Sequence record: ON528742
From: Shigella phage ESh32
Strand: one strand, 5' to 3'
DNA length: 64,000 nucleotides
Both the position numbers and the translations under genes were made by a program. Below the pieces are notes generated by a model, which made no database searches, was not told where the DNA came from, and saw nothing but the letters and a program-made list of their open reading frames with translations. Of the stretch, positions 7,941 through 58,029 are shown piece after piece. The number at the start of each line of letters is the position of its first letter. The first letter of the stretch is position 1.

Positions 7941-7959
7941 ACTTTAATTGGTAAATAAT

Positions 7960-8502
7960 ATGAAAGCTGTAATTGAAACAACTGATTTGTTCGGTGACTT
8001 AGTTATCGAAAAACGCGGTAATGTATACGTTCTGACGCAGGAAGACGATAGTATTACTATTCTTCCTATGGAACTGGCTGCGATTTTATCTTATGCTCCC
8101 TCAGGAGTTACCGGTGTAACTAATATTACAGGTGACCTCCAAGTTCGTTTTTATCGTGGCCTTTACGGCGGTAATATTGAAACTGAATTTATGTGTCTTT
8201 CTATCAGCAATTGGGCAACATTCGTTGTCAAGGTGAAAGAATTCTTAGAATCTGAAACAGTCGAAACACCCGAAAAGGCTAAACTTCAATGGGCTAAAGA
8301 TCGCGGTGCTAACATTATTAATCCAGTAGCTGCAAATTATACTACGACTTTGGATGTCAAGACTTCTTATGAAGATGGCGATGTCGTACTTGTTCGCCAA
8401 AATGATGATTCTCGAGCACATATTGTCACATTTACCAAAGACGAAGCTATTGCGCTAAAGACTTATCTTGATTCTGTCATTCCAACTATGATTTCAAAGT
8501 GA
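7960..8502 (+). CDS. hypothetical protein (paralog of 8509..9030)
   Basis: ORF 7948..8502 (TTG at 7948); ATG at 7960; C-terminus ...EAIALKTYLDSVIPTMISK. Confidence 0.55.
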   Translation: MKAVIETTDLFGDLVIEKRGNVYVLTQEDDSITILPMELAAILSYAPSGVTGVTNITGDLQVRFYRGLYGGNIETEFMCLSISNWATFVVKVKEFLESETVETPEKAKLQWAKDRGANIINPVAANYTTTLDVKTSYEDGDVVLVRQNDDSRAHIVTFTKDEAIALKTYLDSVIPTMISK

Positions 8503-8508
8503 GGAAAT

Positions 8509-9030
8509 ATGTTTATTTCAAGTGGAAGTGGTTTAATTCGTGTTGAATTTAAAAATGATATTTTCCTTATTCAAGGAGATGATATTATTAAAATGAGTTA
8601 TGATGAAATCAAGAAAATTTGTCATACTCTTGAAAGCCGTGGAAACGTAAATGCTGTTATTGACATTGGTGATTTATGGGTAACGCTTTATGAAGTATCC
8701 GAAGGATTTAATATTGAAGATGAAAATAACATTTTAGCTATTGATAAAAGAACTGATTTGTTTGATGTATTAAAAGCCTATGAACAGTCAAATGGTGGAA
8801 GAAAAGCTGTATTGATTTATCAAAAACCACATTCATGCGGAACTGCTTCAATCATTTCAAATATTGAAGGCGAAGCTGATACTTATATGTGTGTTTTAAA
8901 AGCTGGTGGTGACCGTCATCCGGATTTTATTTCTATTCGTCAAAACAATGGAGAAATTTCATTATCAAAATCAGAAGCTGAAGCTATGATTAAGTATTTA
9001 ACAACTGTTACGCCTTCAATGAAAGGATAA
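8509..9030 (+). CDS. hypothetical protein (paralog of 7960..8502)
   Basis: 173 aa; C-terminus ...EAEAMIKYLTTVTPSMKG parallels upstream gene. Confidence 0.55.
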   Translation: MFISSGSGLIRVEFKNDIFLIQGDDIIKMSYDEIKKICHTLESRGNVNAVIDIGDLWVTLYEVSEGFNIEDENNILAIDKRTDLFDVLKAYEQSNGGRKAVLIYQKPHSCGTASIISNIEGEADTYMCVLKAGGDRHPDFISIRQNNGEISLSKSEAEAMIKYLTTVTPSMKG

Positions 9031-10505: not shown

Positions 10506-10531
10506 AGGGAGCCTTCGGGCTCCCTTTTTTA
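10506..10531 (+). terminator. intrinsic terminator
   Basis: agggagccttcgggctccct + tttttt. Confidence 0.8.
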
Positions 10532-10554
10532 TTTCAAAAATTTTTCACAAAGTT

Positions 10555-10584
10555 GTTTACAAGCATAAAGCTTTATGGTACTAT
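10555..10584 (+). promoter_or_regulatory. T4-type early promoter with A/T-rich upstream element (cassette copy A)
   Basis: aaaaatttttcacaaagttgtttacaag ... atggtactat. Confidence 0.6.
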
Positions 10585-10618
10585 ACAACTATCAACTGAT
10601 ACGGATTTGGAGAATAAA

Positions 10619-11587
10619 ATGAAAACTGTAACTATCAATAAGGGTATCTACTTCGGTAAAGAAATCTCTGGAACTTTTGAGCTCTTAGGCGAATGGTTCC
10701 CAGATAATGCTCCGGTAGATGCACAAGGAGATGGTAAAGTTTTTGTTGAAATTGACGGTAAACGTCGCGGTGTTTGGGTTTACAAATCAGACATTTCATA
10801 TGATGGTGTAAAAGTTGAAGAAGTTAAAGAATCATATGAAGATATGAAAACCCGCATTAATAAAAGATTTAATGTTATGGGAATGATGACGAATGGTATT
10901 ATTAACGGAAACATTCGTTCATTAATTATCTCTGGTGCGGCGGGTATTGGTAAAACGTATTCTTTAGATAAAGCTTTAAATAAAGCAAATGATATTGGAT
11001 ACATTGAATATAAAAGCATTAACGGTAAAATCTCCGGTATCGGTCTTTATGAGCAGCTTTGGAATAATCGTGAAGAGAATTCTGTCCTTTTGATTGATGA
11101 TGTGGATGTTTTCTCTGATATGGACATTCTTAATCTTCTGAAAGCTGCTCTGGACACCGGAGAGACCCGTAAAGTCTGCTGGAGCACCGCATCTTCTTAC
11201 TTAGAAGAAAAAGGCATTGAGCGTGAGTTTGAATTTAAAGGAACGATTGTTTTTATCACAAACGTTGACATTGACCGCGAATTAGACCGTGGTACTAAAC
11301 TTGCTCCACATTTACAAGCATTAGTGTCCCGCTCAGTTTATTTGGATTTGGGTGTTCACACTAATGAAGAAATTATGGTCAGGGTTGAAGATGTTATTCT
11401 TTCAACTGACATGATGCAAAAGCGCGGTCTTTCTGATGAAGAAACTTATAAAGCATTATCATGGATGAAAGTCAATGTTAATCGTTTACGCAATGTTTCA
11501 CTGCGTACTGCTCTTTATCTTGCTGACTTTATTATGACCGACAAAAACGGTTGGGAAGAAATTGCTGAAACGGTATTATTAAAATGA
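10619..11587 (+). CDS. AAA+/P-loop ATPase
   Basis: Walker A GAAGIGKTY, Walker B VLLIDDVD; ATG at 10619 after GGAG in the conserved leader. Confidence 0.65.
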   Translation: MKTVTINKGIYFGKEISGTFELLGEWFPDNAPVDAQGDGKVFVEIDGKRRGVWVYKSDISYDGVKVEEVKESYEDMKTRINKRFNVMGMMTNGIINGNIRSLIISGAAGIGKTYSLDKALNKANDIGYIEYKSINGKISGIGLYEQLWNNREENSVLLIDDVDVFSDMDILNLLKAALDTGETRKVCWSTASSYLEEKGIEREFEFKGTIVFITNVDIDRELDRGTKLAPHLQALVSRSVYLDLGVHTNEEIMVRVEDVILSTDMMQKRGLSDEETYKALSWMKVNVNRLRNVSLRTALYLADFIMTDKNGWEEIAETVLLK

Positions 11588-37975: not shown

Positions 37976-38057
37976 ATACAAGTAATATAAATCTATACTT
38001 ATGAAAAACAGATGATTCTGGACCTTTAGAATTCATTAAAAATTTTTTCACAAAACT

Positions 38058-38088
38058 GTTTACAAGACTGTTCTTCCATGGTACTATA
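38058..38088 (+). promoter_or_regulatory. T4-type early promoter (cassette copy C)
   Basis: aattttttcacaaaactgtttacaag ... atggtactat. Confidence 0.6.
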
Positions 38089-38124
38089 TCAATATCAACT
38101 ACTGATACGGATTTGGAGAATGAA

Positions 38125-38505
38125 ATGAAAATCGCTATTTTGGTTATTGCATTAGGTCTTACTGGTTGTGTGGCTCAAGGACCGGTAGTAAATCAGTCTG
38201 ATGTAGGAAAAATTGTAAACTGTTCAAGCAAATTTTATAATCCTAATGTCAAGTGTTATAAAGAAGCTCCAAATCAAACAGTCGAACAAATGCAGGCGAA
38301 TTTTGACGAAGCTATTCGTCCAGATGAATCTGCTCAAGCATATCGTAATTCTGATGTAATTACACGCGAAGAAAAAATTGAAAACTACTGCGCCGAGCTT
38401 TGGGCTAATTGGGCTAATAATTACCAATGGCGTACTGGTAAAAATGCTCCGATGGAGTATGTAGTGAATTCTTATAATTCATGTGTAAAAAATTTGACTA
38501 AGTGA
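38125..38505 (+). CDS. lipoprotein
   Basis: signal peptide with lipobox LTGC; ATG at 38125 (track ORF starts at TTG 38113). Confidence 0.55.
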   Translation: MKIAILVIALGLTGCVAQGPVVNQSDVGKIVNCSSKFYNPNVKCYKEAPNQTVEQMQANFDEAIRPDESAQAYRNSDVITREEKIENYCAELWANWANNYQWRTGKNAPMEYVVNSYNSCVKNLTK

Positions 38506-44089: not shown

Positions 44090-44383
44090 ATGAAAAAATT
44101 TGTTTTTGCTGCAATTTTTGCTTTAGCTTCTTGTGCTGCTCAGCCTGCTATGGCAGGTTATGATAAAGATTTGTGTGAATGGTCTATGACTGCGGATCAG
44201 ACTGAAGTTGAAACTCAGATTGAAGCAGATATTATGAATATCGTTGAGCGTGATCGCCCTGAAATGAAAGCTGAAGTACAAAAACAGCTTAAGTCTGGTG
44301 GTGTAATGCAGTATAATTATGTTTTGTATTGCGATAAAAACTTTAATAACAAAAATATCGTAACTGAAATCACAGGTGAATAA
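44090..44383 (+). CDS. sp: spackle periplasmic protein Sp
   Basis: 97 aa with signal peptide; position between 41 and 61. Confidence 0.7.
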   Translation: MKKFVFAAIFALASCAAQPAMAGYDKDLCEWSMTADQTEVETQIEADIMNIVERDRPEMKAEVQKQLKSGGVMQYNYVLYCDKNFNNKNIVTEITGE

Positions 44384-44384
44384 T

Positions 44385-45017
44385 ATGATTTATTATATGC
44401 ACAAAAATCCACCGTTTAAATACGGTAAATTTCCTGATGCACAATGTTATAATATAACGCCTGATGAAAATAACCGTGGATATCTTATTGGCACAATTTT
44501 TGTAATTGTTAAAGATAACGAAATCGTTGCCTGGGCAGATTTTAAAGGTACAACACATGATGTTAATCCGGTGCCTTTCACATATTACAATATAATGGAT
44601 TTGGCATATGATTATAATTGGTTTAATCATGACACGTTGGCTCATATTGAAGGTGTAGGATTTGACATCTCTTATTCTAGCTACTCGTTGTGTCCTATGA
44701 GTCGGGCTCATAAAGAACCTGAATATTTTTCATTTAGGAAACGTGTAAACTTTAAACGCAACACAGAGTATGTCGGTGGAATCTTTGTTAAAGATAATCG
44801 AATTATTCGTATTAATTATCCTTTGAGCGTTAGTCAAAAAGATATTGATGTTGATTTAGATTTCACTGAAAATAATATTAATCATATTGCTTCTGTGTAT
44901 TTTGGTATCGATCACAAAATTGTAATATGTGGATATGAATTACCGTTTGAAGAACAGTCTAAAGTAAATGTTTCTATTGACGATCAAATTTTTAATGCTT
45001 TTATGAATAAAGGTTAA
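44385..45017 (+). CDS. hypothetical protein (shares C-terminal motif with next gene)
   Basis: ORF 44376..45017 (GTG 44376); ends ...SIDDQIFNAFMNKG. Confidence 0.55.
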   Translation: MIYYMHKNPPFKYGKFPDAQCYNITPDENNRGYLIGTIFVIVKDNEIVAWADFKGTTHDVNPVPFTYYNIMDLAYDYNWFNHDTLAHIEGVGFDISYSSYSLCPMSRAHKEPEYFSFRKRVNFKRNTEYVGGIFVKDNRIIRINYPLSVSQKDIDVDLDFTENNINHIASVYFGIDHKIVICGYELPFEEQSKVNVSIDDQIFNAFMNKG

Positions 45018-45018
45018 T

Positions 45019-45375
45019 ATGTATAGTTCTGAATTTTCATATTTAAAAATGGAAAAAATTTCATACGATTTTATAGATGAAAAGGTTTATTATAGTTTCC
45101 ATGAACCACGTTTTAATAGTGAGGTTGGGTTTATTGTAGTAAAAGACAATTTCATTTTAAAGATATATTCGGCATTAAAGGATTTTCACTACGAAAATAT
45201 TAACCTAAAATTTGATAAAGAAAACGTTCGTAATTGTGCAGTAACAATTACAGGAAATAAAGGTACGTGTGTTATGTTATCTGATGAAATTAATGATTTG
45301 CTAAATGATGCCGAAAAGGTTGCTATTCCATCTATTGATGACCAAATTTTTAATGCTTTTATGAATAGAGGTTAA
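45019..45375 (+). CDS. hypothetical protein (shares C-terminal motif with previous gene)
   Basis: 118 aa ending ...SIDDQIFNAFMNRG. Confidence 0.55.
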   Translation: MYSSEFSYLKMEKISYDFIDEKVYYSFHEPRFNSEVGFIVVKDNFILKIYSALKDFHYENINLKFDKENVRNCAVTITGNKGTCVMLSDEINDLLNDAEKVAIPSIDDQIFNAFMNRG

Positions 45376-49841: not shown

Positions 49842-49867
49842 AGCTTCTGAAGTATACGGAGGCTATC

Positions 49868-50491
49868 ATGATTATTAATCCTGCAGATGTTGAACAGTTA
49901 TCTATAAAAGCTGAAAGCGTTGATTTTCAATATGATATGTATAAAAAAGTCTGTGAAAAATTTACTGACTTTGAGCAGTCTGTTCTTTGGCAATGTATGG
50001 AAGCCAAAAAGAATGAAGCTCTTCATCGGCAATTGAATAAAATCATTAAAAAGCATTTAACTAAATCACCTTATCAGTTATATCGCGGTATATCAAAATC
50101 GACAAAAGAACTTATTAAAGATTTACAAGTTGGAGAAGTGTTTTCAACGAACAGGGTAGATTCATTTACTACTAGTTTGCACACAGCATGTTCTTTTTCT
50201 TATGCTGAATATTTCACTGAAACAATACTTCGTTTAAAAACTGATAAAGCTTTTAATTACTCTGACCATATCAGCGATATTATACTTTCTTCTCCTAATA
50301 CTGAGTTTAAGTATACATATGAAGATACTGATGGGCTAGATTCAGAGCGTACTGATAACTTAATGATGATTGTGCATGAACAAGAATGGATGATTCCAAT
50401 TGGAAAGTATAGAATAACTTCTATTTCAAAAGAAAAATTACACGATTCATTTGGAACATTTAAAGTTTATGATATTGAGGTAGTTGAATGA
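49868..50491 (+). CDS. modB: ADP-ribosyltransferase ModB-like
   Basis: R-S-ExE ART triad (LYRG, TTS, EQEWMIP); 207 aa. Confidence 0.65.
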   Translation: MIINPADVEQLSIKAESVDFQYDMYKKVCEKFTDFEQSVLWQCMEAKKNEALHRQLNKIIKKHLTKSPYQLYRGISKSTKELIKDLQVGEVFSTNRVDSFTTSLHTACSFSYAEYFTETILRLKTDKAFNYSDHISDIILSSPNTEFKYTYEDTDGLDSERTDNLMMIVHEQEWMIPIGKYRITSISKEKLHDSFGTFKVYDIEVVE

Positions 50492-51090
50492 AATACTCAG
50501 TAATGCAACTAAAAGATTTTAAAATAAAATCAATGGATGCATCGGTGCGTGCTTCTATTCGTGAAGAATTACTTTTTGAAGGGTTTAATTTATCTGAAAT
50601 TGAACTTTTAATTCATTGTATTACTAATAAGCCAGATGACCATACTTGGTTAAATGAAATAATCAAATCTCGTTTGGTTCCAAACGATAAACCTCTTTGG
50701 AGAGGTGTTCCAGCTGAGACTAAGCAAGCGTTAAATCAAGGAATTGATATTATTACATTTGATAAAGTCGTATCAGCTTCATATGATAAAAATATAGCTC
50801 TACATTTTGCTTCCGGTTTAGAGTATAACACACAGGTTATTTTTGAATTCAAAGCTCCTATAATATTCAATTTCCAGGAGTATGCTATAAAAGCTCTACG
50901 CTGTAAAGAATACAATCCAAACTTTAAGTTTCCGGATAGCCATCGTTATCGTAATATGGAATTAGTTTCAGATGAACAAGAAGTAATGATACCAGCTGGA
51001 AGTGTATTTAGAATTGCAGATAGATATGAGTACAAAAAGTATTCAACATACACTATCTATACTCTTGATTTTGAAGGATTTAATCTATAA
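50488..51090 (+). CDS. modA: ADP-ribosyltransferase ModA-like
   Basis: LWRG, SAS, EQEVMIP; 200 aa; tandem paralog of upstream gene. Confidence 0.65.
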   Translation: MKYSVMQLKDFKIKSMDASVRASIREELLFEGFNLSEIELLIHCITNKPDDHTWLNEIIKSRLVPNDKPLWRGVPAETKQALNQGIDIITFDKVVSASYDKNIALHFASGLEYNTQVIFEFKAPIIFNFQEYAIKALRCKEYNPNFKFPDSHRYRNMELVSDEQEVMIPAGSVFRIADRYEYKKYSTYTIYTLDFEGFNL

Positions 51091-54322: not shown

Positions 54323-55005
54323 TGTTTGATTTTATTATAGATTTTGAAACAATGGGAAGCGGTGAAAAAGCAGCTGTTATTGATTTGGCTGTAATTGCTT
54401 TTGACCCTAATCCAGAAGTCGTTGAAACATTTGATGAATTAGTTTCACGTGGCATTAAAATCAAATTTGATTTAAAAAGCCAAAAAGGACATCGTCTTTT
54501 TACTAAAAGCACTATCGAATGGTGGAAGAATCAATCTCCTGAAGCTCGAAAAAATATTGCACCATCCGATGAAGATGTAAGCACTATCGATGGTATTGCA
54601 AAATTTAATGATTACATCAATGCACATAATATCGATCCTTGGAAATCTCAAGGCTGGTGCCGTGGAATGTCGTTTGATTTTCCAATTTTAGTCGATCTCA
54701 TTCGTGATATTCAACGTCTTAATGGTGTTTCTGAGAATGAGCTTGACACATTTAAGTTAGAACCATGTAAATTCTGGAATCAGCGTGATATTCGTACCAG
54801 AATTGAAGCACTTCTGCTTGTTCGTGATATGACAACATGTCCTCTTCCAAAGGGAACCTTAGATGGATTCGTTGCGCATGATTCTATTCATGACTGTGCG
54901 AAAGACATCCTGATGATGAAGTATGCTTTGCGATATGCTATGGGTCTTGAAGATGCTCCGTCAGAGGAAGAATGCGATCCTCTATCTCTTCCAACAAAAC
55001 GATAA
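54322..55005 (+). CDS. dexA: exonuclease A (DEDDh 3'-5' exonuclease)
   Basis: 227 aa; IIDFETMG exo motif; matches remembered T4 DexA. Confidence 0.85.
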   Translation: MFDFIIDFETMGSGEKAAVIDLAVIAFDPNPEVVETFDELVSRGIKIKFDLKSQKGHRLFTKSTIEWWKNQSPEARKNIAPSDEDVSTIDGIAKFNDYINAHNIDPWKSQGWCRGMSFDFPILVDLIRDIQRLNGVSENELDTFKLEPCKFWNQRDIRTRIEALLLVRDMTTCPLPKGTLDGFVAHDSIHDCAKDILMMKYALRYAMGLEDAPSEEECDPLSLPTKR

Positions 55006-55011
55006 AAAGTT

Positions 55012-55041
55012 GTTTACTTCCTCGGTTAGTTGTGGTATTAT
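55012..55041 (+). promoter_or_regulatory. T4-type early promoter
   Basis: aaaagttgtttacttcctcggttagttgtggtattat. Confidence 0.6.
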
Positions 55042-55068
55042 AACACCATAGCTACTGAGGATAATAAA

Positions 55069-55581
55069 ATGAAAATTTATCGTGTTGAATCATCGTTTAG
55101 CGCATTAAATGATGATAGTGGTATAATGAAAATTAGGCAAGAGTTATGCGTCCAATCGACTCCTTATCGTGGATTTGATTCTATGAAAACTCGAACTTGG
55201 TTAAAATTTTGTGGTATTAATTCATCATCATTTCATCATCATAGCGATAATTATGAAAGCCATGAAAGTATTCCTATTCCACACGATGATAAGTTATTAG
55301 TTGAAAATGCTAATGATGTTATTAAAACTAAATGGAATAAAGATTATTCACGAATTGAAAATTATATTCCATTGTGGTTTATTGCATTATATCATTTTGC
55401 TTTCGCTAGTGAATATGATATGATGAGATGGTTCACTCGAGAAGAGCGTGAAGACTTAAAAGAACGTGGAATGTACATTGCGATTTATGAAGTGCCAGAT
55501 GACCAAGTTATCATTGGCGGACATCAAGTAATGTTCCGCAAATCGCATGCCGAATTAAAAGGCTTTATTACCTTAGATTAA
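55069..55581 (+). CDS. hypothetical protein
   Basis: ORF 55030..55581; ATG at 55069 after GAGGA. Confidence 0.5.
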   Translation: MKIYRVESSFSALNDDSGIMKIRQELCVQSTPYRGFDSMKTRTWLKFCGINSSSFHHHSDNYESHESIPIPHDDKLLVENANDVIKTKWNKDYSRIENYIPLWFIALYHFAFASEYDMMRWFTREEREDLKERGMYIAIYEVPDDQVIIGGHQVMFRKSHAELKGFITLD

Positions 55582-55591
55582 AGAGAAAATT

Positions 55592-56095
55592 ATGATTAAA
55601 AATAATGCTGTTTATCAATTGAAAAAATTTGATGAAATTAAGAATTTTCCGGTACTGTCTAATACAGCTCATAATAAGTTTTGTGAACTTCTTGCTTTAA
55701 CTGGCGGATATCCTTTTACTGTTATTAGTGTTAATAGCGGAATTCTTATCGGCATGATGTATATTGAAATTAGAAACTATTATGGAATGGTGTCATCGCT
55801 TATTATTTATGAAAAAGATTTTAGTCTATTGACAGAAATTGAAAAAGAAGAACAGGAAAAATCCCATATTGATATGGATTTAGTTTCTATGTATGTGGCA
55901 CCAGTTGAAAAAATTGAAGACCCGACTGATTTGTTGTGTAAGGCAGTTTACATTCGTCGTCCATTCGCGAATCCGGTCGGCGGTTGGGTAACTGACCAGT
56001 GGATTGAAGATGGCGTTGAACTTCTTAATGTAGTTCATGCTGGAGAGTATTCTGTCGTTCCTCGCAGCGCAGTGATTAATGTTCGTGTAAGCTAG
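55592..56095 (+). CDS. hypothetical protein (paralog of 56169..56660)
   Basis: C-terminal ...GGWVTDQWIEDGVELLNVVHAGEYSVVPRS. Confidence 0.5.
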   Translation: MIKNNAVYQLKKFDEIKNFPVLSNTAHNKFCELLALTGGYPFTVISVNSGILIGMMYIEIRNYYGMVSSLIIYEKDFSLLTEIEKEEQEKSHIDMDLVSMYVAPVEKIEDPTDLLCKAVYIRRPFANPVGGWVTDQWIEDGVELLNVVHAGEYSVVPRSAVINVRVS

Positions 56096-56124
56096 TTTAC
56101 AAACTCTTGGGATCAGAGTATAAT
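56095..56124 (+). promoter_or_regulatory. T4-type early promoter
   Basis: gtttacaaactcttgggatcagagtataat. Confidence 0.6.
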
Positions 56125-56168
56125 GGTCCTGTGGAGTATAAAACCTTTTTAACAAGTGAGAGATAATT

Positions 56169-56660
56169 ATGAATATTAATATCGGCGAAATTGCTCGTGT
56201 ATCTGATAAATCCCGTTCTAAAGCAGCAGGAAAATTGGTCGAAGTTGTAAGCATTCAGCTTAAACACGGTGTTAAAGATGAAGATTCTGAAGTAAAAGTA
56301 CGTATCATTGCTAAAGATGGAATGTCTAAGCCCCAGTTTGGTTATGTTCGATGGAAATTTCTTGAGCCTGCGTTTTTGAAAGCTGTTCCTGCTAAAGGAA
56401 TTGAAACGATTGATACTTCGCATGTAGGTGTAGACTTTAAGTGGAAACTTGGTCAAGCTATCAAGTTCATTGCTCCTTATGAGTTTGAATTTACCGAAGG
56501 TGGACAACCACTTCCTCGGCGTACTCGCGCTATGTGTGCATACATTACTGATCAATGGGTAGAAGATGGCGTTAAGTTATACAACGCGGTATTTTTAGGA
56601 ACATACAAAGTCATTCCTGAAAGTTGGATTAAACACTATAGCAAAGCTCGCTATGCATAA
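56169..56660 (+). CDS. hypothetical protein (paralog of 55592..56095)
   Basis: C-terminal ...AYITDQWVEDGVKLYNAVFLGTYKVIPES. Confidence 0.5.
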   Translation: MNINIGEIARVSDKSRSKAAGKLVEVVSIQLKHGVKDEDSEVKVRIIAKDGMSKPQFGYVRWKFLEPAFLKAVPAKGIETIDTSHVGVDFKWKLGQAIKFIAPYEFEFTEGGQPLPRRTRAMCAYITDQWVEDGVKLYNAVFLGTYKVIPESWIKHYSKARYA

Positions 56661-56684
56661 AGTTTAAAATTTTTTCATAAAACT

Positions 56685-56714
56685 ATATACATCAGTAGTT
56701 GATTATGGTACTAT
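56685..56714 (+). promoter_or_regulatory. degenerate copy of the early promoter/leader cassette (copy D)
   Basis: ttttttcataaaactatatacatcag ... atggtactat, with -35 degenerated relative to copies A and C. Confidence 0.4.
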
Positions 56715-56832
56715 ATCAATATCAACTACTGATATAGAAAATAATTTGGAGAATAAAATGGAAAATTTGCCAAAGGTGCTGCTACTCTTCTGAAATGCAT
56801 CGCTCCAATGTTCAATTAACGAGGAAATTGTA

Positions 56833-57048
56833 ATGAAACGTAAAATTGTTCAGAACTGCACTAATGACGAATTTGAAGATGTGTTATTCGATCCAGATTT
56901 GGTAGTAGTTCAAAAGGAACACACTGCTAAGTTTACTCACTTGACTTCGGTTTATGTGTATGAAAAGGTTGGGGATAAACAACCAATTTACGGTGTATTT
57001 CGTGAAATCACTGAAGATGGTACAACTTACTGGAAGGAAATTTATTAA
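56833..57048 (+). CDS. hypothetical protein
   Basis: 71 aa; GAGGAAA RBS. Confidence 0.5.
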
Positions 57049-57473
57049 TGGCTATTAAATTTGAAGTTAATAAATGGTATCAATTTAAAAATAAACAAGC
57101 TCAAGAAGATTTTATCAAGGACCATACTGAAAACGGAATTTATGCACGACGTCTTGGTATGGAACCTTTTAGAGTTACAGATATTGACTATCTTGGTCGT
57201 CCTACTAAACTTGTGACATCTAGTGGAAAATTGGCGTTATCTTCTGGTAAAGATATTTTGGATGAAGATTTTATCTGGCTTTCAACGAGTGAAGCCGTGT
57301 TCTTTGATGAAGTGGAAAATCCATACCAGGCAGCTGAAGAGCAAGAGCAGGAAGAGAAAGAGCAAGAACAAATAGAAGATTTCACAGAATTCCCGGTCAT
57401 GAAAGTTACTATTGAAAATAATGAACAGGCATGGTCTTTGTATCAGATGTTGAAAGCACACTTTAAGGAATAA
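57048..57473 (+). CDS. hypothetical protein with acidic C-terminal segment
   Basis: 141 aa, [12 protein letters not shown] tract. Confidence 0.5.
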
Positions 57474-57475
57474 TT

Positions 57476-57652
57476 ATGCCAATGTATGATTATAAATGCC
57501 AATCCGAAGATTGCGGGCATGAATATGAAAAAATTAAAAAGATTTCTGAACGAGAAAATGATGTTTGCCCTAAATGTCATCGTTTGTCTACTCGTCGGCC
57601 TTCTGCTCCTAAGCATGTGAATGGCGGTTTTTACGATTTACTTAAAGGGTGA
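57476..57652 (+). CDS. small zinc-ribbon protein (FmdB-like)
   Basis: 58 codons read from sequence: YKCQSEDCGH...CPKCH (CxxC-x~20-CxxC). Confidence 0.45.
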   Translation: MPMYDYKCQSEDCGHEYEKIKKISERENDVCPKCHRLSTRRPSAPKHVNGGFYDLLKG

Positions 57653-57654
57653 TT

Positions 57655-58029
57655 ATGTTTAAAATCGGTAAGAAATATCGTGTTCGCGAAGGTGAAGAAA
57701 AGAAATATCTACTTTCTACTAGTAATAGGAGTGGTTCTATTAATGCCGTAATATCTACAAGCGAATTTATCGTTGAAGATATGAAAGGTCATAATGTTAC
57801 AATGATTAGTACAGCAACTAGCAGAAATGCTGGAAAAATTCTTCACAGTTTTCAGAGTAATGTTCTAATTTATGATGAAGAATTTGACTTCTTCGAAGAA
57901 GTTCCTGAAGATTTTGATTTTGAATGCACTATTACTATGAAATCTGGTGACCCTCTTTCTTTTACAGTTAAAGATGAAAGAAGCCGTTTGAGAATTATTA
58001 GTCTCCTTCAAGCCATTAAATTTAAGTGA
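57655..58029 (+). CDS. hypothetical protein
   Basis: ORF 57649..58029 (GTG); ATG at 57655. Confidence 0.5.
   Translation: MFKIGKKYRVREGEEKKYLLSTSNRSGSINAVISTSEFIVEDMKGHNVTMISTATSRNAGKILHSFQSNVLIYDEEFDFFEEVPEDFDFECTITMKSGDPLSFTVKDERSRLRIISLLQAIKFK

What the first reader, a model, noticed from the sequence alone, without database searches (positions are those of the whole stretch)
55592..56660. Paralog pair with a shared C-terminal DQW(I/V)EDGV(E/K)L motif
ORFs 55592..56095 and 56169..56660 share a conserved C-terminal block (TDQWIEDGVELLNVVHAGEYSVVPRS versus TDQWVEDGVKLYNAVFLGTYKVIPES). They are separated by an early promoter, so each copy has its own transcription signal.
Basis: seen in the sequence. 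Interest (0 to 1): 0.4.

Follow-up and report, generated by a model that had tools for sequence, protein, structure and literature searches.

The report
MotB and MotB.1 share one domain
Two neighbouring early genes of this T4-like phage (motB.1 and motB) really do share a conserved C-terminal domain of about 55-70 residues, but this was published in 2021, so the finding is correct and ordinary.

Summary
ORF 55592-56095 is motB.1 and ORF 56169-56660 is motB, in a Tequatrovirus 98% identical to Yersinia phage fPS-65. They share a block with 16/31 identities (BLASTP E 7e-10). Profile-profile comparison extends it to 52 aligned columns (MotB.1 113-165 vs MotB 92-157, E 4.7e-16), with a variable hairpin insert in MotB. 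The N-terminal halves are unrelated in sequence, so the paralogy is at domain level, not whole-gene level.

This is already published. Patterson-West et al., Viruses 2021;13:84 reported the shared C-terminal domain, the different N-terminal domains and a probable duplication.

- Structure models suggest the shared part is a five-strand SH3-like small barrel rather than the published OB fold.
- The module is acidic throughout the MotB.1 family.
- The module occurs only in T4-like phages, always at this one locus. A KOW domain plus the module is probably the ancestral form.
- The 119-aa "13.8 kDa MotB.1" of the T4 reference record comes from one extra G inside the motif. That G is absent from every re-sequenced T4 genome.

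The promoter before motB is real and conserved. motB.1 has no promoter of its own and follows motB.2.

The parts
55013..55041 (+). Promoter-like site before motB.2 (TTTACT, 17 nt, TATTAT, with TG). It probably drives motB.2 and motB.1.
   Evidence: 9 of 12 consensus positions, extended -10. Annotated 'predicted early promoter' at the equivalent place in fPS-65.
55069..55581 (+). motB.2 homolog (170 aa). It lacks the shared module and is unrelated in sequence to MotB and MotB.1.
   Evidence: No Pfam family. phrog_1106, unknown function. Not hit by the module profile.
55592..56095 (+). motB.1 homolog, intact 167-aa form.
   Evidence: phrog_2333, E 5e-82 over the full length. 98% identical to P0001. 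The syntenic T4 gene is motB.1.
55592..55843 (+). MotB.1 N-terminal barrel (residues 1-84), GoF/39.1-like ('LSm-like').
   Evidence: AF2 model: strands 7-10, 42-49, 55-61, 67-73 and 80-83 plus helix 24-37, with pLDDT about 71-90. The domain profile hits window ORF 39.1 at E 1.8e-5. Published as LSm-like in PMC12152347.
55844..55918 (+). MotB.1 linker (residues 85-109). It includes a ~22-aa insert absent from the 143-145-aa forms, with an 'ID.D..S.Y..P' element.
   Evidence: Alignment A1. pLDDT below 50 for residues 88-107. The PHROG MotB profile aligns from residue 92. The element recurs in P0030, P0076, P0083 and P0027.
55919..56086 (+). Shared C-terminal module in MotB.1 (residues 110-165).
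   Evidence: hhalign columns 113-165. Model strands 118-123, 126-139, 142-149 and 152-157, a 3-10 turn, then 161-163, with pLDDT about 86-91. Mean pairwise identity in the family is 79.7%, against 38.8% for the N-terminal domain.
56096..56124 (+). Early-type sigma-70 promoter of motB (TTTACA, 17 nt, TATAAT).
   Evidence: 11 of 12 positions. Annotated in fPS-65. Invariant core in the window, T4, VR25 and a metagenomic contig.
56169..56660 (+). motB (163 aa).
   Evidence: Pfam PF17613, E 5.8e-94 over the full length. phrog_1671, E 3.9e-75.
56169..56372 (+). MotB N-terminal basic small barrel (residues 1-68), KOW-like.
   Evidence: Model strands 8-11, 23-30, 41-46, 56-61 and 65-67. pI 9.6, net charge +4. 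Distant module-bearing relatives P0242 and P0250 pass Pfam's KOW cut-off. Published as KOW-like in PMC7827196.
56430..56639 (+). Shared C-terminal module in MotB (residues 88-157). It includes a variable hairpin insert at residues 107-122 (56487-56534).
   Evidence: hhalign columns 92-157. Model strands 97-108, 117-132, 135-142 and 145-150, a 3-10 turn, then 154-157. Pairwise identity is 33.7% in the insert and 75.1% in the core.

Best explanation
SHOWN. motB.1 and motB are adjacent early genes of a T4-like phage. They are homologous only in a C-terminal module: about 55 residues in MotB.1 and about 70 in MotB, which carries a variable hairpin insert between the first two strands. The module is the most conserved part of both families. 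It occurs only in T4-like phages, always at this locus between dexA and cef. It is joined by a disordered linker to interchangeable N-terminal small barrels: KOW-like in MotB, one or two GoF-like barrels in MotB.1-type proteins.

INFERRED, history. The ancestral gene was a single 'KOW barrel + module' gene, as still found alone in distant T4-like phages. It was duplicated in tandem, and the upstream copy had its N-terminal barrel replaced by a GoF/39.1-type barrel from the same gene neighbourhood. Cassette exchange, deletions and frameshifts at the locus have continued since.

INFERRED, fold. The module is a five-stranded SH3-like small barrel. The invariant G-[WYF]-[IV]-[TS]-D-Q-W-[IV]-E-[DEN]-G...L-x-N-x-V stretch forms the second strand, a tight turn and the third strand.

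INFERRED, function (the weakest step, about 0.4 on its own). The module is consistently acidic in MotB.1-type proteins, and MotB's positive charge sits mainly in its N-terminal barrel. So the module is more likely a common interaction or self-association unit than the DNA-binding surface. It would tether different nucleic-acid-binding heads to one target: a DNA-binding head in MotB, and possibly an RNA-binding head in MotB.1.

Transcription. motB has its own conserved early promoter. motB.1 is read together with motB.2 from an upstream promoter.
For: Homology: BLASTP E 7e-10; hhalign probability 98.7%, E 4.7e-16 over 52 columns; Pfam motB hits MotB.1 at residues 122-161 only; the PHROG MotB profile hits MotB.1 residues 92-163 at E 3.7e-15. 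Unrelated N-termini: hhalign probability 0.4%. Matching structure: the strands of two independent AF2 models coincide under the hhalign mapping, each with a 3-10 turn before the last strand. Fold neighbours of both models are tandem Tudor, Agenet, SAWADEE and KOW6-7 domains. Conservation: module 79.7% vs N-terminal domain 38.8% in the MotB.1 family; core 75.1% vs N-terminal domain 57.1% vs insert 33.7% in the MotB family. Architectures and synteny. Bridge protein P0083 aligns with MotB over its full length (E 9e-13) and with MotB.1 over the linker plus module (E 7e-30). Distribution: only 36 clusters among 1.84 billion representatives, of which about 25 look genuine, most with a KOW-like N-terminus. 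Old duplication: DNA identity of the block is 50/93, longest identical run 12 nt. Charge. Promoter. Prior publication of the shared C-terminal domain and the duplication idea: PMC7827196.
Against: All fold-search matches to solved structures are marginal (E at least 1.2e-3, TM at most 0.40). They come from whole two-domain models, so the SH3-like assignment of the module rests mainly on strand order. The published HHpred analysis assigned MotB residues 69-149 to an OB fold, and eIF5A does appear at rank 48. No experiment separates the two domains of MotB, so DNA binding by the module is not excluded. In some MotB-family members the module is basic (net charge up to +3). The direction of the domain swap is inferred from distribution only. 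Nothing here tests a common protein partner.
Confidence: 0.8

Rival explanations
1. The shared module is an OB-fold (cold-shock-like) nucleic-acid-binding domain, as published. Both proteins would bind DNA or RNA through it, and the N-terminal domains would modulate that binding.
For: HHpred hits to archaeal eIF5A for MotB residues 69-149, reported in PMC7827196. MotB binds DNA tightly and without sequence specificity. eIF5A is among the Foldseek hits for MotB (rank 48).
Against: The models show five strands with a 3-10 turn between strands 4 and 5, and no helix between strands 3 and 4. That is the SH3-like order. The top fold neighbours are Tudor, Agenet, SAWADEE and KOW domains. The module is acidic in every MotB.1-type protein examined (net -1 to -5, pI 4.4-5.5), and MotB.1 as a whole has pI 4.95.
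Confidence: 0.25
2. The two genes are whole-length paralogs, and their N-terminal barrels have simply diverged beyond sequence recognition. There was no domain replacement.
For: Both proteins have the same plan: small barrel, disordered linker, module. Both whole models resemble tandem Tudor or KOW pairs.
Against: The N-terminal domain profiles do not match each other (probability 0.4%). The MotB.1-type N-terminal domain does match 39.1 (E 1.8e-5; phrog links). Relatives carry one or two GoF-like barrels, or a KOW-like barrel, in front of a nearly identical module. N-terminal type and module tail subtype occur in mixed combinations.
Confidence: 0.1
3. The similarity is kept up by ongoing gene conversion between the neighbouring copies, or is a chance or compositional match.
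For: The copies lie about 500 bp apart on the same strand.
Against: DNA identity of the block is 54%, with a longest identical run of 12 nt. The protein-level statistics are far beyond chance.
Confidence: 0.02

Closest known systems
T4 MotB / MotB.1 shared C-terminal domain (Patterson-West et al., Viruses 2021;13:84, PMC7827196)
   Same: The same two genes, the same shared C-terminal domain with different N-terminal domains, the same duplication hypothesis, and the same classes of relatives. Their categories 1, 2 and 4 correspond to the MotB, MotB.1-type and other-N-terminus forms seen here. Their category 3 is a 29-aa remnant peptide.
   Different: They assign the C-terminal domain to an OB fold, whereas the models here look SH3-like. 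They did not note the acidity of the module, its restriction to one locus, the single-gene KOW + module forms in distant T4-like phages, or that the T4 reference MotB.1 is cut inside the motif.
Pfam PF17613 (motB, 'Modifier of transcription') and PHROG phrog_1671 / phrog_2333
   Same: MotB is a full-length member. MotB.1 passes the Pfam cut-off through the module alone.
   Different: The Pfam model spans both MotB domains. MotB.1 matches only profile positions 114-153 of 162, so it shares a domain, not the family architecture.
Tevenvirinae LSm-like fold family: GoF, MotB.1, Frd.2 (Kim et al., CSBJ 2025, PMC12152347)
   Same: The MotB.1 N-terminal domain (residues 1-84) is modelled here as the same kind of bent five-strand sheet. 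It is linked by sequence profiles to 39.1, and through phrog_622 to GoF.
   Different: That paper concerns the N-terminal domain, not the shared module. It lists T4 MotB.1 as 13.8 kDa, the truncated reference form. It does not mention 39.1.
Tandem SH3-like barrel proteins (53BP1 and UHRF1 tandem Tudor, Spt5 KOW6-KOW7, NusG)
   Same: Two small five-strand barrels in one chain. These are the best structural neighbours of both models.
   Different: No sequence similarity. The matches are marginal (E at least 1.2e-3). Here the two barrels are joined by a disordered linker rather than packed together. This is a resemblance in fold class only.

Membership tests
Pfam PF17613 motB | Score above the gathering cut-off (25 bits) with a full-length match to the 162-position model | tested here: met
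   MotB (56169-56660): 312.8 bits, model positions 1-162.
Pfam PF17613 motB | The same criterion applied to ORF 55592-56095 (MotB.1) | tested here: inconclusive
   33.3 bits, which is above the cut-off, but only model positions 114-153 are matched (residues 122-161). It shares the domain, not the architecture.
MotB.1 family (phrog_2333; category 2 of PMC7827196) | Full-length similarity to MotB.1 proteins and a position immediately upstream of motB | tested here: met
   phrog_2333, E 5.2e-82 over residues 1-166. 98% identity to P0001. Synteny with T4 motB.1.
OB fold (cold-shock DNA-binding-like), claimed for the shared C-terminal domain | Five-strand barrel with a helix between strands 3 and 4, and OB-fold proteins as nearest structural neighbours | tested here: not met
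   There is no helix between strands 3 and 4, and a 3-10 turn lies between strands 4 and 5 in both models. The top neighbours are Tudor, Agenet, SAWADEE and KOW domains, and eIF5A appears only at rank 48. Caveat: these are predicted models and the E-values are marginal.
SH3-like small barrel (Tudor / KOW / Sm class) | Five antiparallel strands with a 3-10 turn before the last strand, and structural neighbours of that class | tested here: inconclusive
   The strand order fits and the neighbours are of that class. However, E is at least 1.2e-3, TM is at most 0.40, and the searches used whole two-domain models.
KOW motif (Pfam PF00467) for the MotB N-terminal domain | Pfam KOW match above the cut-off of 22.3 bits | tested here: not met
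   No KOW hit for the window's MotB at E up to 1. Distant module-bearing relatives do pass: P0242 at 24.8 bits and P0250 at 22.9 bits. The architecture is therefore KOW-like by relatedness, not by direct match.
LSm-like fold family of Tevenvirinae (GoF / MotB.1 / Frd.2) | N-terminal bent five-strand antiparallel sheet, and a relationship to GoF-family proteins | tested here: met
   Five strands in residues 7-83 of the model. The N-terminal profile hits 39.1 at E 1.8e-5. 39.1 and GoF share phrog_622. GoF is among the BFVD neighbours (rank 23). The direct HMM hit to GoF is not significant (E 8.4).
T4 early (sigma-70 type) promoter | Near-consensus -35 and -10 hexamers at 17-nt spacing, conserved among relatives, in front of an early gene | tested here: met
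   11 of 12 consensus positions at 56096-56124. Annotated in fPS-65. Invariant core in four loci. Actual transcription was not tested.

The most novel reading that the evidence does not exclude
The shared module may be an acidic SH3-like adaptor that brings different nucleic-acid-binding heads to one common target during host takeover: a DNA-binding KOW barrel in MotB and RNA-type GoF-like barrels in MotB.1 forms. One candidate target is the H-NS/StpA-DNA complexes with which MotB co-purifies. Another is the partner paralog, through module-module pairing. The dexA-cef locus would then act as a cassette-exchange site where heads are swapped on a fixed adaptor. If the published MotB.1 constructs followed the reference record, which cuts the protein inside the module, intact MotB.1 has not yet been tested functionally.
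Probability: 0.2. Interest if true: 0.45.

Novelty: already known. Interest (0 to 1): 0.15.

Why it matters
The finding itself adds nothing to Viruses 2021;13:84. Three side results are of practical use to people working on T4 early genes.

1. The '13.8 kDa MotB.1' of the T4 reference record is truncated inside the conserved module by a single extra G that no re-sequenced T4 genome has. Constructs designed from NC_000866.4 therefore lack most of the domain MotB.1 shares with MotB. This may bear on the lack of phenotype reported for MotB.1.
2. The shared domain looks SH3-like and is acidic in MotB.1-type proteins. This points to MotB's basic N-terminal barrel as the place to look for its DNA binding.
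3. A KOW domain plus the module, as a single gene, is the widespread and probably ancestral form. That gives a simpler protein for structural and functional work.

Tried and rejected
- Sequence searches of the Protein Data Bank with profiles of MotB.1, MotB and the module alone gave nothing meaningful (best E 0.72, 1.6 and none).
- I tested whether the module is a diverged copy of either N-terminal barrel, or whether the two N-terminal barrels are related. All hhalign probabilities were below 2%, so this was rejected.
- I looked for further copies of the module in the 64-kb window and found none.
- Large repeat proteins hit by the module profile (P0244 and others, 600-2759 aa, 4-7 short stretches each) were rejected as motif-level matches to Ig-like 'GYQWQKNGVSLTN' repeats.
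- Gene conversion between the two copies was rejected on DNA identity.
- MotB.2, annotated 'transcriptional regulator' in several records, has no similarity to MotB or MotB.1. That name seems to be inherited from its neighbour.
- I could not run Foldseek on the isolated module.

Full report
**Identity of the region.** The window is a T4-like phage (Tequatrovirus). Region 55000-57100 is 98.3% identical to Yersinia phage fPS-65 and matches 530 phage records. The gene order is dda, dda.1, dexA.2, dexA.1, dexA, motB.2, motB.1, motB, cef, goF, 39.2, 39.1, 39, as in T4. ORF 55592-56095 (167 aa) is the motB.1 homolog (phrog_2333, E 5e-82). ORF 56169-56660 (163 aa) is motB (Pfam PF17613, E 5.8e-94 over the full length).

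**The observation.** Both quoted peptides are present. BLASTP aligns MotB.1 131-161 with MotB 124-154: 16/31 identical, E 7e-10. Against all 383 ORFs of 50 aa or more in the window, the pair scores E 1.8e-7 and is the third best of about eight paralog matches. A profile built from MotB.1-type C-termini finds exactly these two ORFs in the six-frame translation (E 3.8e-40 and 2e-11; next 0.58).

**Extent of the homology.**
- Family alignments were built for MotB.1 (A1, 51 sequences) and MotB (A2, 58 sequences).
- They match by hhalign with probability 98.7% and E 4.7e-16 over 52 columns: MotB.1 113-165 against MotB 92-157, with a ~13-residue insertion in MotB.
- The first strand supports this. 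Many MotB proteins read FKW.LCKGVEF, against TDLLCKAVSI in MotB.1.
- The PHROG MotB profile reaches back to MotB.1 residue 92 (E 3.7e-15). That stretch includes a short 'ID.D..S.Y..P' element, which lies in a ~22-aa insert peculiar to the 164-169-aa forms.
- The N-terminal halves do not match (hhalign probability 0.4%), and the module matches neither N-terminal barrel (below 2%).
- The paralogy is therefore at domain level.

**Structure.** AlphaFold2 models of both proteins (mean pLDDT 78.5 and 77.9) show the same plan: an N-terminal small barrel, a disordered linker, and a confident C-terminal unit of five strands with a 3-10 turn before the last strand.

| Element | MotB.1 | MotB |
|---|---|---|
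| Disordered linker | 88-107 | 70-86 |
| Strand 1 | 118-123 | 97-108 |
| Strand 2 | 126-139 | 117-132 |
| Strand 3 | 142-149 | 135-142 |
| Strand 4 | 152-157 | 145-150 |
| Strand 5 | 161-163 | 154-157 |

Under the hhalign mapping the strands of the two modules coincide. The MotB insertion lengthens the hairpin formed by strands 1 and 2.

Foldseek against the PDB returns tandem SH3-like barrels for both models: 53BP1, Crb2 and UHRF1 tandem Tudor, Agenet, SAWADEE, Spt5 KOW6-7 and NusG. All E-values are at least 1.2e-3 and TM-scores at most 0.40. eIF5A, the basis of the published OB-fold assignment, appears only at rank 48 for MotB. BFVD returns MotB.1 and MotB relatives, KOW-domain phage proteins and GoF. 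I read the module as an SH3-like small barrel, with moderate confidence. The OB-fold assignment is not specifically supported.

**Conservation and charge.**

| Family | Region | Mean pairwise identity |
|---|---|---|
| MotB.1 | module | 79.7% |
| MotB.1 | N-terminal domain | 38.8% |
| MotB | module core | 75.1% |
| MotB | N-terminal domain | 57.1% |
| MotB | hairpin insert | 33.7% |

The module is the most conserved part of both families. Invariant across both families are L, D..W.E, L.N.V and V. MotB.1 is acidic (pI 4.95, net -7), and its module is acidic in all 16 MotB.1-type sequences examined (net -1 to -5). MotB is basic (pI 9.4), with the charge concentrated in the N-terminal barrel (net +4, pI 9.6). 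Module charge varies from -4 to +3 across the MotB family. This argues, by inference only, that the conserved module is not the generic DNA-binding surface.

**Distribution and history.**
- A profile of the module, scored against 1.84 billion representative proteins, found 36 clusters at E up to 0.001. About 25 are small proteins. The large hits are spurious matches to Ig-like repeats.
- Nearly all divergent members have a MotB-like or KOW-like N-terminus. P0242 and P0250 pass Pfam's KOW cut-off.
- Those examined lie in T4-like contigs at the same place, between dexA and cef/39, as a single gene.
- In Tequatrovirus-like and related phages, the gene upstream of motB carries the module behind a MotB.1-type barrel, behind an 'IGKTY' GoF-like barrel (180 aa), or behind two such barrels (about 250 aa).
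- P0083, the only such gene in Klebsiella phage pzk-kv8, aligns with MotB over its full length (E 9e-13) and with MotB.1 over the linker plus module (55% identity, E 7e-30). It bridges the two families.
- N-terminal type and module tail subtype occur in mixed combinations, and a 43-aa remnant fuses the MotB.2 start to the module tail (P0243). The locus is evidently mosaic.
- Within the window the block is only 54% identical in DNA, with a longest identical run of 12 nt. The duplication is therefore old and is not maintained by gene conversion.

**Transcription.** TTTACA, 17 nt, TATAAT at 56096-56124 is the best promoter-like site in the region, matching 11 of 12 positions. It is annotated as an early promoter in fPS-65. 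Its core is invariant in the window, T4, VR25 and a metagenomic contig, while the end of the upstream gene diverges. motB.1 begins 10 nt after the motB.2 stop with no promoter-like site of its own. The nearest is 55013-55041, before motB.2. No + strand terminator-like site lies between the genes.

**What is known.** Patterson-West et al. (Viruses 2021;13:84, PMC7827196) state that T4 MotB and MotB.1 share a conserved C-terminal domain but have different N-terminal domains, and that one gene may have arisen by duplication of the other. They also describe categories of relatives with other N-terminal domains and a 29-aa remnant. MotB binds DNA tightly and nonspecifically, co-purifies with H-NS and StpA, is toxic to E. 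coli and doubles burst size. Kim et al. (CSBJ 2025, PMC12152347) describe the MotB.1 N-terminal domain as LSm-like, together with GoF and Frd.2. They found no phenotype for MotB.1. The finding is therefore already known.

**A side result that bears on the finding.** The T4 reference record (NC_000866.4 / AF158101.6) annotates MotB.1 as 119 aa, ending ...DQWIGRWR. An alignment shows one extra G (GGATTGGAAGATGG against GGATT-GAAGATGG, next to window position 56006) inside the DQWI|EDGV motif. The downstream DNA stays conserved in the other reading frame. Only those two records have the extra G. All re-sequenced T4 genomes lack it, and MT984581 annotates an intact 143-aa MotB.1. The 2025 paper lists MotB.1 as 13.8 kDa and used synthesised genes. 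Whether those constructs encode the truncated form is my inference, not something I could verify.

Noticed in passing
window 56005-56007 (equivalent to NC_000866.4 around 7300; locus L002): The T4 reference record has one extra G inside the DQWI|EDGV motif. This truncates MotB.1 to 119 aa ('13.8 kDa'). All re-sequenced T4 genomes and this window lack the extra G and encode an intact module.
   Followed up: yes
window 57649-58029 (39.1) and 57048-57473 (goF): 39.1 (126 aa here, annotated as only 65 aa in the T4 reference) and GoF both fall in phrog_622 (E 7e-29 and 5e-40). 39.1 also matches the MotB.1-type N-terminal barrel profile (E 1.8e-5). It therefore looks like a further member of the 'LSm-like' GoF/MotB.1/Frd.2 family, and the 2025 paper does not mention it.
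   Followed up: partly
window 56690-56736 (motB-cef spacer): A very stable hairpin: a 13-bp perfect stem plus an inner 5-bp stem, RNA MFE -24.2 kcal/mol, z = -5.0. It is identical in T4 and absent from VR25 and pzk-kv8. A promoter-like TG-n-TACTAT lies in its loop region. Its function is unknown.
   Followed up: partly
window 55865-55918 (MotB.1 residues 92-109); also P0030, P0076, P0083, P0027: A short 'ID.D..S.Y..P..P' element recurs in front of barrels or in front of the module in many relatives. It lies in a low-confidence linker in the model and seems to correspond to MotB's 'ETIDTSHVGVDFKW'.
   Followed up: partly
window 49844-50488 / 50488-51087; 44364-45014 / 45007-45372; 38005-38502 / 10508-11584; 7948-8499 / 8503-9027: Other intra-window paralog pairs from the all-against-all BLASTP (E 1e-12, 2e-8, 2e-7 and 6e-6). 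Three of the four are adjacent gene pairs. None was examined further.
   Followed up: no
window 55069-55581 (motB.2): Several records annotate this gene as 'transcriptional regulator', but it has no similarity to MotB or MotB.1 and no Pfam family. The name appears to be inherited from its neighbour.
   Followed up: yes
P0243 (43 aa, metagenomic): A deletion remnant that fuses the first 11 residues of MotB.2 to the last ~28 residues of the module. It is analogous to the 29-aa RB69 peptide reported in 2021 and shows how often this locus is rearranged.
   Followed up: no
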